Of a stretch of 64,000 nt of DNA, positions 26,701 to 32,960 are shown piece by piece. Source of the DNA: the human T2T-CHM13v2.0 reference genome, Homo sapiens. The position numbers and the translations under genes are program-made. A model generated the notes under the pieces. It was given only the letters and a program-made list of their open reading frames with translations. It was not told the DNA's origin and searched no databases. The stretch lies in the NCBI GenBank assembly GCA_009914755.4, contig CP086569.2, positions 5,888,001 to 5,952,000 on the forward strand, read 5' to 3'. Positions within the stretch are counted from its first letter, which is position 1, and each line of letters begins with the position of its first letter.

Positions 26701-26992
26701 TAAGGTTTGGTCATAACCAGCACCAAAAAACAGCAAGCTGCGCCATTCCCCCAGCTATTCTACTTCTTCACGCTGCTTAGCTGGGGTTTTGGGGACTTGA
26801 ATTCCCTTGACAGTTTCTCTACAACTGTCTTTCTCCCATTTCTGTGCTGGCTCCATACTAAATGAACAGTGTATCCTTACCACAGCTAGATGTGCCTATT
26901 TTATGTAAATCTAAGTAATTCATTTCAAGATTAAGATATCATTATAAAGCAATTACAACTGGAGATTGTTAATGAATATCTTTCCCTTTATT

Positions 26993-27043
26993 TGTGTGTG
27001 TCTGTGTGTGTGAGAGAGACAGAGAGAAACAGAGATAGAAACA
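26993..27043. repeat. (GT)n/(GA)n microsatellite
   Basis: Reads tgtgtgtgtgtctgtgtgtgtgagagagacagagagaaacagagatagaaac. Confidence 0.9.
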
Positions 27044-27190
27044 AGGTCTTACTCTGTTGCCCAGGCTGGAGTGCAGTGGCGTGATTCACAGTAGCCTCAA
27101 ACTCCCAATATTAAGAGATTATCCCACCTCTGCCTCCTGAGTACATGGGACCACAGGCACACACCACTGCATCTGGCTATTTTTATTTTG
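27044..27190 (-). mobile_element. Alu-like monomer (right-arm only, FRAM-like or truncated Alu)
   Basis: Reads aggtcttactctgttgcccaggctggagtgcagtggcgtgat...cctcaaactcc...cctgagtacatgggaccacaggcacacaccactgcatctggctattttt. At about 150 bp it covers only half of a dimeric Alu. Confidence 0.7.
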
Positions 27191-27371
27191 GCATAAATAA
27201 GCTCTTATCATATTGTGCACCTGGTCTCAAATGATCCTCGAAAATAGTTTCTAAAGAAGTATTTCTACTTTAGTGCTTACCTGGACTTCATCTGGATTCA
27301 TGTGACCTCCAGGGCTTCATTCAAATTGAAATGTGGAAATAATAAGATTTTTCTTGATTTTTTTTCCCCAG

Positions 27372-27634
27372 AAAAAGCTCAGGAGCCCTGGCCCTAGTCC
27401 AAGTGGGGCTTAGTCATCTTCTGGAATCTGCCCAAGCTGACTGTGAGCATTGACCATGCCATACCCTACCTAGCTCCCAAGGGACCTCTAGGACCTGGGT
27501 TGATCTTCCTGAAGCAGCCACTACATTTTCAACCCCTGGTGTTTCCTCTATGCTTGGAGGAAAGTCTGGAACAGGAGAAATTTACACAACTATATGACTA
27601 TTGGCTATCTAGCTGGTCCCTTATGAGGGCTGAG
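27372..27634 (+). pseudogene. Protease copy U, exon 3 relic (Asp-region exon)
   Basis: The acceptor ccccag ends at 27371. The translation is ...SKWGLVIFWNLPKLTVSIDHAIPYLAPKGPLGPGLIFLKQPLHFQPLVFPLCLEESLEQEKFTQLYDYWLSSWSL. This follows the S1 pattern HP.Y.....(D)IALLKL..P......V.P.CLP........G..CWV.GWG. The Asp position reads G (PGLIFL). Confidence 0.65.
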
Positions 27635-27805
27635 TAATGAAGAAGACCCTGGGATGGAAGAGAAGCATGTTTGGAAAGAGAATAGTATCCTCTCTTGAAT
27701 AATAAAAAAAAAAAACTGTATTTCTCTTCACCATACTTCCCCCTCTAATCTAGGCTAAATTTGAAAACAAACAAACACAAACACCTCTTCTGTGTTTTCT
27801 ATCAG

Positions 27806-27939
27806 GAAGTTCTGGAATTCTGCAAAAAGGGCACCTGAGCAACCAACAAGTCAGCCCTTGTGCCCAATTGTGCCCCAAGCTGAATGAATTCACTTTTTGT
27901 GTAGAGGCCAAGACAGCTGTTGGGGAGGCTGGCTGTAAG
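27806..27939 (+). pseudogene. Protease copy U, exon 4 relic
   Basis: The acceptor atcag ends at 27805. In the frame starting at 27808 it translates to SSGILQKGHLSNQQVSPCAQLCPKLNEFTFCVEAKTAVGEAGCK, with no stop. This follows the S1 pattern LQ...V.P...C......T..(M)FCAG....G.D.C. It is nucleotide-homologous to D exon 4 (ccttgtgcccaattgtgcc versus gctgtgcccacctgtaacc). Confidence 0.6.
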
Positions 27940-28057
27940 GGGACAAATTCATGGGGTATGAATGCCAGGAAGAAAGAGGAATATCTTGCACACTAAAAGT
28001 TACTTCTGGCCCTCCTTCAAAATATTGATTCATATCTTGTATCTTTGTTTCTTGCAG

Positions 28058-28246
28058 CGTGACTTGGGAGCACCTTTCGTATGCCATCTACAGCAAAAGG
28101 ACACTTGGGTGCAAGTGGGAATCTTGAGTCACTTTGAGGAGCATTGCACAAAGCCGTGTGTCTTCAGCCAAGTGCACCCTTTTCTTTCTGGCTCCTGGGA
28201 GTGCCATGGCCTAGCCATGCACCCTGGCACCACCAGGGGCCCATGA
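28058..28246 (+). pseudogene. Protease copy U, exon 5 relic (Ser-region exon)
   Basis: The acceptor tttcttgcag ends at 28057. The translation is RDLGAPFVCHLQQKDTWVQVGILSHFEEHCTKPCVFSQVHPFLSGSWECHGLAMHPGTTRGP*, following the S1 pattern GDSGGP.VC.....W.L.GIVSWG..C....PGVYT.V..Y..WI. The catalytic Ser position is Leu (ttg at 28064-28066). The stop is at 28244-28246. Confidence 0.75.
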
Positions 28247-30584: not shown

Positions 30585-30830
30585 GAGTCCTGAAGACACT
30601 GCTGTGATACTGGGCCTGAGGCATCCTGGGGCACAACTGAGAGTTGTGAAGGTGTCTACCATTCTGCTGCATGAGAGATTCTGGTTGGTGAGTGGAGCAG
30701 CAAGAAATATCCTGGCATTGCTACTCCTCCAAGATGTCCAGACTCCCATTCGGCTCTCAGCACTCCGGCTGTCTGAAGAATCTGAATAGTCCAGAAGGCT
30801 GGCTCTCTGGGGCACAAATTATTACACCAG
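30585..30830 (+). pseudogene. Protease copy D, exon 3 relic (Asp-region exon)
   Basis: The acceptor cacacag ends at 30584 and the donor gtcagt starts at 30831. The translation is (M)SPEDTAVILGLRHPGAQLRVVKVSTILLHERFWLVSGAARNILALLLLQDVQTPIRLSALRLSEESE*SRRLALWGTNYYT. The NDIALL motif reads NILALL, with the Asp position at atc 30709-30711. An in-frame TAG is at 30787-30789. Confidence 0.8.
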
Positions 30831-31282
30831 GTCAGTGTTACTTTTTCTCACTGGGGTAGCAGTTGTAAAAAATAAATGAGATTTGTATTTTTAATATTAT
30901 GTTTCAAGGAGTAACTGTAATCACAATTGTATACATTACTAATAATAAGATGTTTAATCCACACAAGAGACCCACTAGGAAATGTGTTTTTGTTTTATAA
31001 GATGATGGTTCTGATGATAACTTCACAAGATTTTAGATCTGAAAACATTTATATGAGGATCTTTCTCTGTACAGTCAATTTTATAAACCAAAGTAGACAT
31101 GATTGGTTTTCCAACTCTTTGCTAACTTCAAAACAAAGGAAAAAGAAGGTTTTTTGATTTGTTTTCTTTTTACCTCTTTATGAAAATGAAGCTGAACTTG
31201 ACTTGGCATTTGGAATTTCTTAAGTAAAATTTACTTGTTACTTTTGAAGAGTGGCATTTAAAAAGTGATTAAAGAATGACAA

Positions 31283-31572
31283 TGTTGTCCACAGTGGCTC
31301 AATCCTATATTTCCAGCACTTTGGGAGCTTCAACCAGGAGAATGTTTTAGGCCCAGGAATTTGATACCCAGTTGGGCAATAGAGCAAGACTTCATCACTA
31401 AACAACAACAACAACAAATAGCTTGATGTGGTGTTGCACACATGTAGTCCCAGCTACCTGGGAGGCTGAGAGAGGAAGATAGCTTGAGCCCAGGAGGTTG
31501 AGGCTGCAGTGTGTGAAGATGGTGCCAATGCACTCCAGCCTGGGTGACCAAGCAAGAACTTGTCCAAAAAAA
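31283..31572 (+). mobile_element. Alu (J-like, diverged)
   Basis: Reads cacagtggctcaatcctatatttccagcactttgggagc...gtagtcccagctacctgggaggctgagagaggaagatagcttgagcccaggaggttgaggctgcagtg...gcactccagcctgggtgacc...aaaaaaa. Confidence 0.9.
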
Positions 31573-31576
31573 GGTT

Positions 31577-31872
31577 TGGGAGCTGGCATGGTGGCTCATG
31601 CCTGTAATCCCAGCACTTTGGGAGGCTGAGGCCAGTAAATCACCTGAAGTCAGGAGTTTAAGACCAGTCTGACCAACATGGGGAAAACCCATCTCTACTA
31701 AAAATACAAAATTAGCCAGGAGGGGTGGTGTGTGCCTGTAATCCCAGCTACTCAGGAGGCTGAGGCAGGAGAATTGCTTGAACCCAAGAGGCTGAAGTTG
31801 CAGTGAGCTGTGAGCAGGCCACTGCATTCCAGACTGAGTGACAAAGTGGAACTGCATCTCAAGAAAAATAAA
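31577..31872 (+). mobile_element. Alu (S-like)
   Basis: Reads gggagctggcatggtggctcatgcctgtaatcccagcactttgggaggctgagg...gtaatcccagctactcaggaggctgaggcaggagaattgcttgaaccc... It lies directly after the previous Alu. Confidence 0.9.
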
Positions 31873-32074
31873 GGTCAATAGAAAGATAATAAAATATATA
31901 AATGTGTGATGTAAAATTTAATGGTGATAAAATAAACTGAATTTCTCTGTGTAAGTTACACATACAAATGTAATGACGAGACAGTGATAAGACAAATCAA
32001 GGTTTTATCTCAATACTTAGTGTCTACATGTAACATATGTTCTTTAGGATAGTTATAGTCCATTTTCTTTCCAG

Positions 32075-32214
32075 GAGAGACTGATGAGAATGCAGAAATG
32101 TTAAAGCACAAGTGATGGAAGCTTCCAGCTGTGCCCACCTGTAACCTGACATAGACAGTTCCATTGTTTGCTTCATTACTCAGGTCAAAGACATTAATGC
32201 AAATGTGGTACACA
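32075..32214 (+). pseudogene. Protease copy D, exon 4 relic
   Basis: The acceptor ttttctttccag ends at 32074. It is homologous to U exon 4. The first half reads best in one frame (..EMLKHK*WKLPAVPTCNLT*). The last part reads in the expected frame (SIVCFITQVKDINANVVH, compare IT..MFCAG). There are several stops and no GT at the expected donor. Confidence 0.5.
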
Positions 32215-32835
32215 GTCAAATTCTTTTCTATCTACATGATAGAAACTATAACTTTGTCCCTGTATAGAAGGGTATACAGCATATGCCTAAATGATAAATA
32301 TAAGTGAATCATTGATCAGTAGGAAACCATTTTAAAAGTCTTTAATTACAGAACAAAATCTCTGAAAAATTTTATTGTCAATCTGAGTTTTCTTACATGA
32401 GTTATTAATCTCTAGCCATACTAAAGAGATAGTATGCTGTTCTTCAAACAAATTAGACATTGTATATAAAACGACTCCAACATTTTTCTATTTCTCCAAG
32501 TAAAATAACTTGTTTAAGGTATGCTCTTCAGTGATTTTTTTGTAGTAACACTTTTGAAGGTATTTTACCAGGAAGATTTACTTATGTACTTATCTGATGT
32601 CTGCCTTTCTTCTGAATACATATTTTATCACCCACTTATTAATTCTAAGTTTAAGAAGTTGGAATAGGGATTTAAATCCAAATTCTACGTTTGAATTTAC
32701 AGGAGTCAGTGAGTCCAGAAAATGTCATTATGCGCAGACCAATATCTGGCAATGGCACTAGGGGACAAATATGCTTTACCAGTCTCAAAGCCCTAGCTAC
32801 TACAGTGAGTCCACACTTCTCCTGTATCTTATCTG

Positions 32836-32960
32836 CTTCAGCAAAAGAAGGCCACCCACTAAATCAGGCCGTTGTGGCTTGGGTGGAAACTCCTAAGTCC
32901 TCTACTCTCCTTAAAGAGCCAACCACACTGCCACTTTCCTCAATAATAATTACTGCAGCT
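32836..32960 (+). pseudogene. Possible protease copy D exon 5 relic (very weak)
   Basis: Nucleotide echoes of U exon 5 are present: cttcagcaaaag versus ctacagcaaaag, and cttgggtggaaac versus cttgggtgcaagt. The translation is KEGHPLNQAVVAWVETPKSS, compared with RDLGAPFVCHLQQKDTWVQVGILS in U. An insertion must be assumed to align them. Confidence 0.3.

What the first reader, a model, noticed from the sequence alone, without database searches (positions are those of the whole stretch)
26800..32960. Tandem pair of trypsin-like serine-protease pseudogenes next to the TSPY cluster
Two same-strand copies of an S1-protease gene body are recognisable from motif-bearing exons with proper acceptor sites.
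- Copy U has exon 3 (..IFLKQPLHFQPLVFPLCLEES..WLSSWS), exon 4 (..FTFCVEAKTAVGEAGCK) and exon 5 (RDLGAPFVC...WVQVGILSHFEEHC..PCVFSQV).
- Copy D has exon 2 (PWQAGI...WVLIAAHC), exon 3 (..NILALLLLQDVQTPIRLSALRLSEESE*) and exon 4.

At first sight the Ser exon (28058) appears upstream of the His exon (30084). The paralogous exon pairs (3/3 and 4/4 share nucleotide homology) show this is a tandem duplication with a period of about 3.2-4.3 kb, not a scrambled gene.

Neither copy has a recognisable exon 1. The ERV/L1 pile ends immediately upstream of U. I do not recognise which named protease gene this derives from. A Y-linked protease-like gene (Prssly) is annotated in mouse, and whether this is a primate relic of it is pure speculation on my part.
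Basis: partly seen in the sequence, partly recalled or inferred. Interest (0 to 1): 0.75.

Follow-up and report, generated by a model that had tools for sequence, protein, structure and literature searches.

The report
Known PRSSLY pseudogene beside TSPY relics
The two "protease pseudogenes" are the two protease-like domains of one dead gene, the human Y-linked PRSSLY pseudogene described in 2022, so the finding is real but already known.

Summary
The S1-protease exons are real. Joined translations hit Pfam Trypsin (E 3e-14 and 1e-8). I mapped eight exons, 26798-32975 on the + strand.

They are not two tandem pseudogenes. They match nt 3724-5398 of the published "Human (model)" PRSSLY pseudogene transcript (Hughes et al. 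2022, BMC Biol, PMC9178871) at about 99.8%. That model splices "copy U" to "copy D" in one transcript.

In intact orthologues, one reading frame runs from domain 1 through a Ser/Thr-rich linker into domain 2. This holds for armadillo, camel, pocket gopher, dog, walrus and wombat.

U and D share no detectable nucleotide homology apart from Alu. The two domains are 27% identical as protein. The doubling therefore predates the marsupial-eutherian split.

The human copy is dead:
- It is cut mid-exon at 26798.
- It has five frameshifting deletions and a TAA stop.
- Two splice donors are lost.
- 30 of 185 otherwise invariant residues are changed.

TSPY pseudogenes follow downstream. Armadillo chrY has the same PRSSLY-then-TSPY order.

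Three things stay unexplained:
- The 5' 3.7 kb of the model is absent from the window.
- The published chimpanzee and rhesus models are only about 86% identical to this locus.
- They share none of its frame-breaking lesions.

Verdict: already known, low interest.

The parts
26798..26904 (+). Domain 1, first exon (His57-position exon). It is 5'-truncated: homology starts mid-exon at 26798. A 1-bp deletion near 26809-26812 puts TGA (26808-26810) in the ancestral frame. Encodes EFP / PLTVSLQLSFSHFCAGSILNEQCILTTARCAYF. Donor GT is intact at 26905.
   Evidence: blastn to the human model. tblastn to dog P0004 aa 110-143, 82% identity. The armadillo exon is contiguous and about 72 nt longer at its 5' end. 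Splice check.
27372..27629 (+). Domain 1, second exon (Asp102-position exon; ...GPGLIFLKQPLHFQPLVFPLCLEES...WLSSWSLMR). A 2-bp deletion near 27438 causes a frameshift. The donor GT is mutated to CT at 27630-27631.
   Evidence: The armadillo donor is GGTAAGTAATG; the human sequence is GCTGAGTAATG.
27806..27939 (+). Domain 1, third exon (SSGILQKGHLSNQQVSPCAQLCPKLNEFTFCVEAKTAVGEAGCK). The donor GT is mutated to GG at 27940-27941.
28058..28357 (+). Domain 1, fourth exon (Ser195-position exon, RDLGAPFVC...) plus the Ser/Thr-rich interdomain linker (...SASMSLSVSASKDALTFISTPTSIWPHFISLPQPQ). A 1-bp deletion near 28184 causes a frameshift. Donor GT is intact at 28358.
   Evidence: The linker is conserved in all orthologues.
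30084..30219 (+). Domain 2, first exon (SADQISLQYAMPWQAGIISCGSQVYSGSIVSSSWVLIAAHCVRN). His57 is retained. The acceptor AG and donor GT are intact.
   Evidence: Pfam hit on this exon alone, 1.1e-5. tblastn 71-77% identity. Splice check.
30585..30830 (+). Domain 2, second exon (...RNILALLLLQDVQTPIRLSA / GCLKNLNSPEGWLSGAQIITP). The Asp102 position is changed to Ile in human. A 2-bp deletion near 30763 causes a frameshift.
32075..32207 (+). Domain 2, third exon (ETDENAEMLK / AQVMEASSCAHL*PDIDSSIVCFITQVKDINANV). A 1-bp deletion near 32106 causes a frameshift. TAA nonsense at 32142-32144, where the orthologues have Tyr.
32703..32975 (+). Domain 2, fourth exon, running to the ancestral stop TAG at 32973-32975 (ESVSPENVIMRRPISGNGTRGQICF...AALRLW*). 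The conserved Cys and Trp residues are lost. The published model's 3' UTR continues to 33070.
   Evidence: tblastn 56-65% identity, E about 1e-24 to 1e-27. Model end mapped. Stop confirmed.
26552..26797 (.). Old L1 ORF2 debris in both orientations, abutting the truncated exon. This is the left boundary of PRSSLY homology in the window.
   Evidence: tblastn with a recalled L1 ORF2 segment: + strand 26552-26623 (E 2e-4) and - strand 26617-26715 (E 4e-3). Nothing upstream matches the model.
35278..37269 (-). Context: a divergent TSPY-like pseudogene. The exon-1-like part is at 36958-37269 and a 3' exon fragment is at 35278-35424.
   Evidence: tblastn with a recalled TSPY1 sequence: 54% identity, E 5e-20. 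Inverted repeat I1 with the + copy, 74% identity.
38255..40090 (+). Context: a TSPY pseudogene with its introns and in-frame stops (VP*RL, LS*Q, EGR*C).
   Evidence: tblastn: 84% identity over exon 1, E 2e-77. The joined translation hits Pfam NAP PF00956 at 6.8e-16.

Best explanation
Window 26798-33070 (+) is the 3' two-thirds of the human Y-linked PRSSLY pseudogene.

**What the ancestral gene was.** PRSSLY is retained on the Y and lost from the X in eutherians, and is testis-specific in species where it is intact. It encoded a long, poorly conserved N-terminal region followed by two tandem trypsin-fold domains joined by a Ser/Thr-rich linker. Each domain is built from four exons.

'Copy U' is domain 1 and 'copy D' is domain 2 of that single transcription unit.

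**Catalytic residues.** In every mammal examined, neither domain has a complete catalytic triad. Domain 1 has Arg/Gly/Leu in place of His/Asp/Ser. Domain 2 keeps His and Asp but has Pro at the Ser position. So even the intact protein is a non-catalytic protease-like protein.

**State of the human copy.** Constraint has been lost and the sequence has decayed. The first domain-1 exon is cut at 26798. There are five frameshifting deletions, one nonsense codon, two destroyed splice donors, and many changes at invariant residues. It does nothing as a protein. At most it is a weakly transcribed non-coding relic.

**Shown versus inferred.**
- Shown: identity with the published model, the one-ORF two-domain structure of the orthologues, and the lesions.
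- Inferred: the lack of function, and the Ser-to-Pro assignment in domain 2.
For: **Identity**
- The 5398-nt 'Human (model)' of Hughes et al. 2022 (Additional file 9) maps with nt 3724-5398 onto eight collinear blocks, 26798-33070, at 99.3-100% per block. There are only four internal differences.
- Bull, rat, dog and rabbit PRSSLY PCR primers from Additional file 1 resemble the window's exons. This was judged by eye and was not computed.

**One gene with two domains**
- Walrus and wombat transcripts have single ORFs of 408 and 400 codons running from domain 1 through the linker into domain 2.
- The frame-corrected human translation finds armadillo (527 aa, 72% identity, 99% coverage), camel, pocket gopher and dog proteins that span both domains.
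- The armadillo gene occupies 6.1 kb and has two PF00089 hits.
- The intron between the linker exon and the first domain-2 exon keeps GT...AG.

**Ancient doubling**
- There is no U-D nucleotide homology.
- Domain 1 (wallaby) and domain 2 (an unidentified eutherian sequence) are 27% identical, E 2e-7.
- Domain 2 is present in the marsupial X-linked homologues.

**Decay**
- Lesions were mapped.
- The human sequence differs at 30 of 185 positions (16%) that are invariant in at least six intact orthologues. Seven of the ten orthologues differ at 0.6-4.4% in the same test.

**Triad**
- Alignment to factor XI and to the orthologues.

**Synteny**
- A TSPY-like gene lies 2.2 kb downstream of PRSSLY on the armadillo contig. 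TSPY pseudogenes start 2.2 kb downstream of the model's end in the window.
Against: - The first 3723 nt of the published model (the long upstream exon and the start of the first domain-1 exon) are nowhere in the 64-kb window. This stretch is therefore either a rearranged or truncated locus, or a second copy.
- There are four internal differences from the model in about 1650 nt. By my own estimate, that is more than human Y polymorphism should give.
- The published chimpanzee and rhesus models are only about 86.5% identical to this locus. That is hard to square with simple single-copy orthology.
- Y-linkage of the window itself could not be checked against a genome assembly.
- Three of the ten control orthologues also differ at 9-14% of otherwise invariant positions, so the 16% figure alone is not decisive.
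Confidence: 0.93

Rival explanations
1. One reading: two separate S1-protease pseudogenes created by a tandem gene duplication with a period of about 3.2-4.3 kb. Each would once have been an independent gene.
For: - There are two paralogous four-exon S1 units on the same strand.
- NCBI's automatic annotation in many mammals predicts a domain-2-only protein of about 300 aa ('serine protease 52-like'), which looks like a separate gene.
Against: - One ORF spans both units in walrus, wombat, armadillo, camel, gopher and dog.
- The published human transcript model splices them together.
- The linker-to-domain-2 intron has intact splice sites.
- Domain 2 has no start or signal exon of its own. The domain-2-only predictions start at an internal Met in the linker.
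- There is no nucleotide homology between the units.
Confidence: 0.04
2. A relic of a different PRSS family member, for example a PRSS55-like or testis-protease gene transposed to this region, rather than PRSSLY.
For: - Automatic names of the best database hits are heterogeneous: 'serine protease 53-like', '55-like', '52-like', 'TMPRSS9-like'.
- PRSS55 is reported as PRSSLY's closest paralogue.
Against: - About 99.8% identity to the sequence published as the human PRSSLY pseudogene.
- The best hits share the PRSSLY-specific features. These are the tandem two-domain layout, the conserved linker, TTARCA in place of TAAHC, and GDLGAP in place of GDSGGP.
- The same motifs are in the walrus, wallaby and wombat PRSSLY/PRSSLX sequences from the paper.
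- The TSPY neighbourhood is conserved with the armadillo contig.
Confidence: 0.01
3. This window holds a second, 5'-truncated paralogous copy of the PRSSLY pseudogene, not the exact locus from which the published human model was built. For example, it could be one arm of a Y-chromosome repeat.
For: - Model nt 1-3723 are absent from the window, and homology starts abruptly mid-exon next to L1 debris.
- There are four internal differences in about 1650 nt.
- The published chimpanzee and rhesus models are roughly equidistant (about 86%) from this locus and from each other, and share none of its frame-breaking lesions. This hints at old paralogy in the family.
Against: - Two of the four differences are 1-nt indels in short homopolymer runs, typical of long-read or model-building errors. 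The paper used PacBio and RNA-seq data.
- The model is hand-built. For example, it drops GTAAG at an exon end.
- The paper reports PRSSLY as single-copy in well-assembled species.
- A nested insertion pile of more than 26.8 kb could equally well separate the 5' part.
- For: two loci at about 99.8% identity.
Confidence: 0.2

Closest known systems
[quoted passage not shown] 2022, BMC Biol 20:133, PMC9178871)
   Same: - The sequence is about 99.8% identical to nt 3724-5398 of the published human model.
- The eight exon blocks are the same.
- The conclusion is the same: no usable ORF.
   Different: - The window lacks the model's 5' 3.7 kb.
- It differs from the model at four internal positions.
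Intact PRSSLY / PRSSLX orthologues (armadillo P0001, camel P0002, gopher P0003, dog P0004; walrus, wombat and wallaby sequences from the paper)
   Same: - The two-domain architecture, the linker and the intron positions match.
- TTARCA and GDLGAP are present in domain 1, and AAHC in domain 2.
- The stop codon is at the same position.
- Identity is 69-74% after frame correction.
   Different: - The human copy has five frameshifts, a nonsense codon and two lost donors.
- It is cut at the 5' end.
- 16% of invariant residues are changed.
PRSS55 (autosomal testis serine protease; PRSSLY's closest paralogue according to the paper)
   Same: - S1 fold.
- An EAEVGEFPW-type start of the protease domain. 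This is from my memory of PRSS55, not tested here.
- Testis expression of the family.
   Different: PRSS55 is, from memory, a single-domain protease with an intact triad. PRSSLY has two domains and lacks the triad.
Multi-domain 'polyserase' proteases such as TMPRSS9 (from memory)
   Same: There are several S1 domains in tandem in one polypeptide, some of them catalytically dead. NCBI's automatic name for the gopher orthologue is 'TMPRSS9-like'.
   Different: No membership is claimed. PRSSLY has no transmembrane or stem architecture tested here, and both of its domains are non-catalytic.

Membership tests
PRSSLY orthology group | Sequence identity to published PRSSLY sequences of the same or related species | tested here: met
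   - 99.3-100% per block to the published human model.
- 69-74% protein identity to two-domain orthologues over 93-99% of the query.
PRSSLY orthology group | Two tandem trypsin-fold domains joined by a conserved Ser/Thr-rich linker in one transcription unit | tested here: met
   - All eight exons and the linker are present in order, with the connecting GT/AG intact.
- Orthologues have one ORF across both domains.
PRSSLY orthology group | Family-specific replacements in domain 1 (His to Arg in TTARCA; Ser to Leu in GDLGAP) | tested here: met
   The human sequence has TTARCA and RDLGAP.
PRSSLY orthology group | Long upstream ORF exon preceding the protease-like domains | tested here: not met
   - Model nt 1-3723 and dog P0004 aa 1-109 have no match in the window.
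- In camel, a 3414-aa product is called directly upstream of the two-domain gene.
- The feature is missing from this window, not necessarily from the human locus.
PRSSLY orthology group | Y-linkage in eutherians and position beside TSPY | tested here: inconclusive
   - TSPY pseudogenes lie 2.2-7 kb downstream, and armadillo has the same gene order.
- The chromosome of the window itself could not be looked up.
Functional protein-coding gene | Uninterrupted ORF and intact splice sites | tested here: not met
   - Five frameshifting deletions.
- TAA at 32142-32144.
- TGA at 26808-26810 in the ancestral frame.
- Donors mutated to CT at 27630 and to GG at 27940.
Catalytically active S1 (chymotrypsin-fold) serine protease, Pfam PF00089 | Trypsin-fold domain recognisable by profile | tested here: met
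   PF00089 at 3.4e-14 (domain 1) and at 1.5e-8 / 1.2e-8 (domain 2).
Catalytically active S1 (chymotrypsin-fold) serine protease, Pfam PF00089 | His57-Asp102-Ser195 catalytic triad | tested here: not met
   - Domain 1 has Arg/Gly/Leu in human and in all orthologues (alignment to factor XI).
- Domain 2 has His and Asp in the orthologues (Ile in human) and an invariant Pro at the inferred Ser position. The Ser assignment is by motif alignment, because the profile does not reach it.

The most novel reading that the evidence does not exclude
The window may be a second, 5'-truncated copy of the PRSSLY relic rather than the single locus assumed in the literature. [quoted passage not shown] They are about 14% diverged from each other and share no disabling lesions. 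That would mean PRSSLY was duplicated in early anthropoids, perhaps carried along with TSPY amplification, and that different copies decayed independently in each lineage.
Probability: 0.15. Interest if true: 0.35.

Novelty: already known. Interest (0 to 1): 0.15.

Why it matters
PRSSLY matters for sex-chromosome evolution. It is reported as the only ancestral X-Y gene lost from the X but kept on the Y in eutherians. This window shows its human remnant, but that remnant was published in 2022.

What this check adds is modest:
- An exact exon and lesion map in window coordinates.
- An explicit statement that the gene has two protease-like domains, neither with a full catalytic triad in any mammal examined.
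- PRSSLY-TSPY adjacency shared with armadillo.
- Three loose ends that someone with primate Y assemblies could settle quickly: the missing 5' part, four differences from the model, and the roughly 14% divergence among the published primate models.

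Tried and rejected
- **Nucleotide comparison of U with D.** blastn at word sizes 11 and 7 found only Alu matches, so a recent tandem duplication is rejected.
- **Search for the model's 5' 3.7 kb in the window.** blastn at word size 7 and E up to 10, and a search for dog PRSSLY aa 1-109, found nothing.
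- **Simple L1 insertion as the cause of the break at 26798.** I looked for a second copy of the target site or the upstream half of the exon to the left, and found none. The flanking L1 pieces lie + then -, which does not fit a simple insertion or twin priming. This is left unresolved.
- **Automatic lesion calling from the MAFFT nucleotide alignment.** This failed for two reasons. I had set one armadillo exon boundary a base off, and MAFFT hid the first 1-bp deletion. I replaced it with frame bookkeeping from tblastn and direct splice-site reading.
- **Pfam on single small exons.** This gave no hits except for the first domain-2 exon. Joined translations were needed.
- **First combined Pfam call.** It failed because one reference contained a stop codon, and was repeated.
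- **The two-domain structure in the literature.** I looked for it in the text of the two PRSSLY papers I could search. The main text of Hughes 2022 does not discuss a second domain or catalytic residues, and the hamster paper has nothing on domains.

Full report
**1. What is in the sequence**

The joined conceptual translations are real trypsin-family matches:
- Pfam PF00089 at E 3.4e-14 for the upstream unit ('U').
- E 1.5e-8 for the downstream unit ('D').
- E 1.2e-8 for D after frame correction.

U has its His-position exon at 26798-26904 (FCAGSILNEQCILTTARCA). D has its fourth exon at 32703-32975. Each unit is therefore a complete four-exon S1 body.

**2. Identification**

A full-text search for 'Prssly' led to Hughes et al. 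2022 (BMC Biol 20:133, PMC9178871). The paper reports the following:
- PRSSLY is an ancestral sex-chromosome gene kept on the Y and lost from the X in eutherians.
- It is testis-specific.

Additional file 9 of the paper gives a 5398-nt 'Human (model)' sequence. blastn of that model against the window maps nt 3724-5398 onto eight collinear blocks:
- 26798-26915
- 27372-27627
- 27804-27934
- 28058-28357
- 30078-30220
- 30581-30831
- 32071-32208
- 32702-33070

Identity is 99.3-100% per block. Apart from block-end artefacts there are four differences, at 27402, 28156, 28309 and 32857. The published single transcript model therefore contains both U and D.

**3. One gene with two domains**

The walrus and wombat sequences in the same file translate as single open frames of 408 and 400 codons. 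Each runs from domain 1 through a Ser/Thr-rich linker into a second trypsin-like domain. A wallaby transcript joins domain 1 to domain 2 as well.

As an independent check, I searched the protein database with the frame-corrected human translation. It returned predicted proteins covering 93-99% of the query, that is, both domains:

| Species | Length | Identity | Coverage |
|---|---|---|---|
| Armadillo | 527 aa | 72% | 99% |
| Camel | 528 aa | 74% | 93% |
| Pocket gopher | 634 aa | 69% | 99% |
| Dog | 609 aa | 70% | 99% |

The armadillo gene spans 6.1 kb on a 32-Mb contig and carries two PF00089 hits. In camel, a 3414-residue product without Pfam domains is called directly upstream. This fits the 'massive upstream exon' described in the paper.

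In the window, the intron between the linker exon and the first domain-2 exon keeps its GT (28358) and AG (30082-30083).

**4. Age of the doubling**

blastn of U against D finds only Alu-to-Alu matches. Domain 1 (wallaby) and domain 2 (an unidentified eutherian sequence from the paper's file) are 27% identical, E 2e-7. That is no closer than S1 paralogues in general.

Domain 2 is present in the marsupial X-linked homologues. The two-domain structure therefore predates the marsupial-eutherian split. Whether it arose by internal duplication or by fusion of neighbouring paralogues cannot be decided from these data.

**5. State of the human copy**

Frame bookkeeping used tblastn with dog and armadillo proteins, comparison with armadillo splice sites and direct reading. 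The lesions are:
- Homology begins mid-exon at 26798. The armadillo exon is contiguous and about 72 nt longer at its 5' end.
- A 1-bp deletion near 26810 places TGA in the ancestral frame.
- A 2-bp deletion near 27438.
- Donor GT changed to CT at 27630.
- Donor GT changed to GG at 27940.
- A 1-bp deletion near 28184.
- A 2-bp deletion near 30763.
- A 1-bp deletion near 32106.
- TAA at 32142-32144, where the orthologues have Tyr.

The ancestral stop (TAG at 32973-32975) is at the orthologous position.

At 185 alignment columns that are invariant in at least six intact orthologues, the human sequence differs at 30 (16%). Seven of the ten orthologues differ at 0.6-4.4% in the same leave-one-out test, but three diverge more, at 9-14%. 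The human changes include four conserved cysteines, three tryptophans and the domain-2 Asp102 position.

This is a dead gene. The paper reports only low-level transcription.

**6. How the intact gene would work**

Alignment to factor XI and to the orthologues shows that domain 1 has Arg, Gly and Leu at the His57, Asp102 and Ser195 positions in all species. Domain 2 keeps His and Asp but has an invariant Pro where the Ser is expected. This last point is inferred by aligning VSPGSAVMC with GDSGGPLVC, because the Pfam profile stops before this region.

PRSSLY is therefore a tandem pseudo-protease, and any function would be non-catalytic. The main text of the paper does not discuss a second domain or catalytic residues.

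**7. Surroundings**

Upstream of 26798 lies old L1 ORF2 debris in both orientations. Further upstream there is more L1.

Downstream there are three TSPY-like features:
- A divergent TSPY-like pseudogene on the minus strand, 35278-37269.
- A TSPY pseudogene with introns and in-frame stops on the plus strand, 38255-40090. Its joined translation hits Pfam NAP at E 6.8e-16.
- A further fragment at 45425-45583.

On the armadillo contig, a TSPY-like gene follows PRSSLY 2.2 kb downstream on the same strand. The adjacency is therefore old. The paper places PRSSLX/Y in stratum 2. That TSPY belongs to the same ancestral region is my own recollection, not tested here.

**8. Loose ends**

(a) Model nt 1-3723 are nowhere in the window. 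The 5' part is either more than 26.8 kb away, elsewhere on the chromosome, or belongs to another copy.

(b) The four internal differences from the model are more than I would expect from human Y polymorphism. However, two of them are 1-nt indels in short homopolymer runs, and the model is hand-built.

(c) The published chimpanzee and rhesus models are about 86.5% identical to the window and 85.8% identical to each other. None of the human frame-breaking lesions is shared. Human-chimpanzee orthologues should be about 98% identical and should share most lesions. Either the three models are not orthologous loci, or the labels or sources differ from what they appear to be. No tool here searches primate genomes, so this stays open.

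**9. Verdict**

The 'tandem pair of pseudogenes' reading is wrong in structure, because this is one gene with two domains. The feature is already described in the literature, so interest is low.

Noticed in passing
window 1-26797 versus 26798: The first 3723 nt of the published human PRSSLY pseudogene model have no match anywhere in the window. Homology starts abruptly in the middle of an exon that is contiguous in armadillo. The left flank is L1 ORF2 debris, + then - strand. This could be a rearrangement breakpoint, a very large insertion pile, or a truncated second copy.
   Followed up: partly
window 27402, 28156, 28309, 32857: There are four internal differences between the window and the published human model in about 1650 nt. 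Two are 1-nt indels in short homopolymers and two are substitutions. They could be model or long-read errors, or a sign of a paralogous copy.
   Followed up: partly
window 26798-32975 versus the chimpanzee and rhesus models in Additional file 9 of PMC9178871: The three published primate pseudogene models are roughly equidistant. Each is about 86% identical to the window, and they are 85.8% identical to each other. Human-chimpanzee K2P is 0.146. The human frameshifts and stop are not shared with them. This is not what human-chimpanzee orthologues should show.
   Followed up: partly
alignment A1; armadillo P0001 / L001 10001-16142: In all intact mammalian orthologues examined, neither protease-like domain has a complete catalytic triad. 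Domain 1 has Arg/Gly/Leu. Domain 2 has His/Asp and an invariant Pro at the inferred Ser position. The main text of the 2022 paper does not mention a second domain or catalytic residues.
   Followed up: partly
L001 18334-20186 (+); window 35278-40090: A TSPY-like gene lies 2.2 kb downstream of PRSSLY on the armadillo contig, in the same order as in the window. This suggests that the PRSSLY-TSPY adjacency is ancestral in eutherians.
   Followed up: partly
window 36958-37269 (-) and 38255-38737 (+): Two TSPY exon-1-like sequences sit head to head about 1 kb apart and are only 74% identical to each other (inverted repeat I1). The + copy has in-frame stops. These are old, diverged TSPY pseudogenes rather than members of the young TSPY array.
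   Followed up: partly
window 35274-35838 and 45433-45993: Direct repeats about 10.16 kb apart (77-84% identity) each contain a minus-strand fragment of a TSPY 3' exon. They are the remains of an old segmental duplication in the TSPY-pseudogene region.
   Followed up: no
window 27025-27183: The Alu fragment in the first intron of domain 1 corresponds to sequence that is included as exon in the published rhesus model (84.5% identity). The rhesus transcript therefore exonises this repeat.
   Followed up: no
database hits P0007-P0016: In many mammals the automatic annotation predicts only a protein of about 300-400 aa, often named 'serine protease 52-like'. In the members I aligned, these start in the linker or in late domain 1 and contain domain 2. 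PRSSLY is therefore often split or mis-named in public annotation.
   Followed up: no
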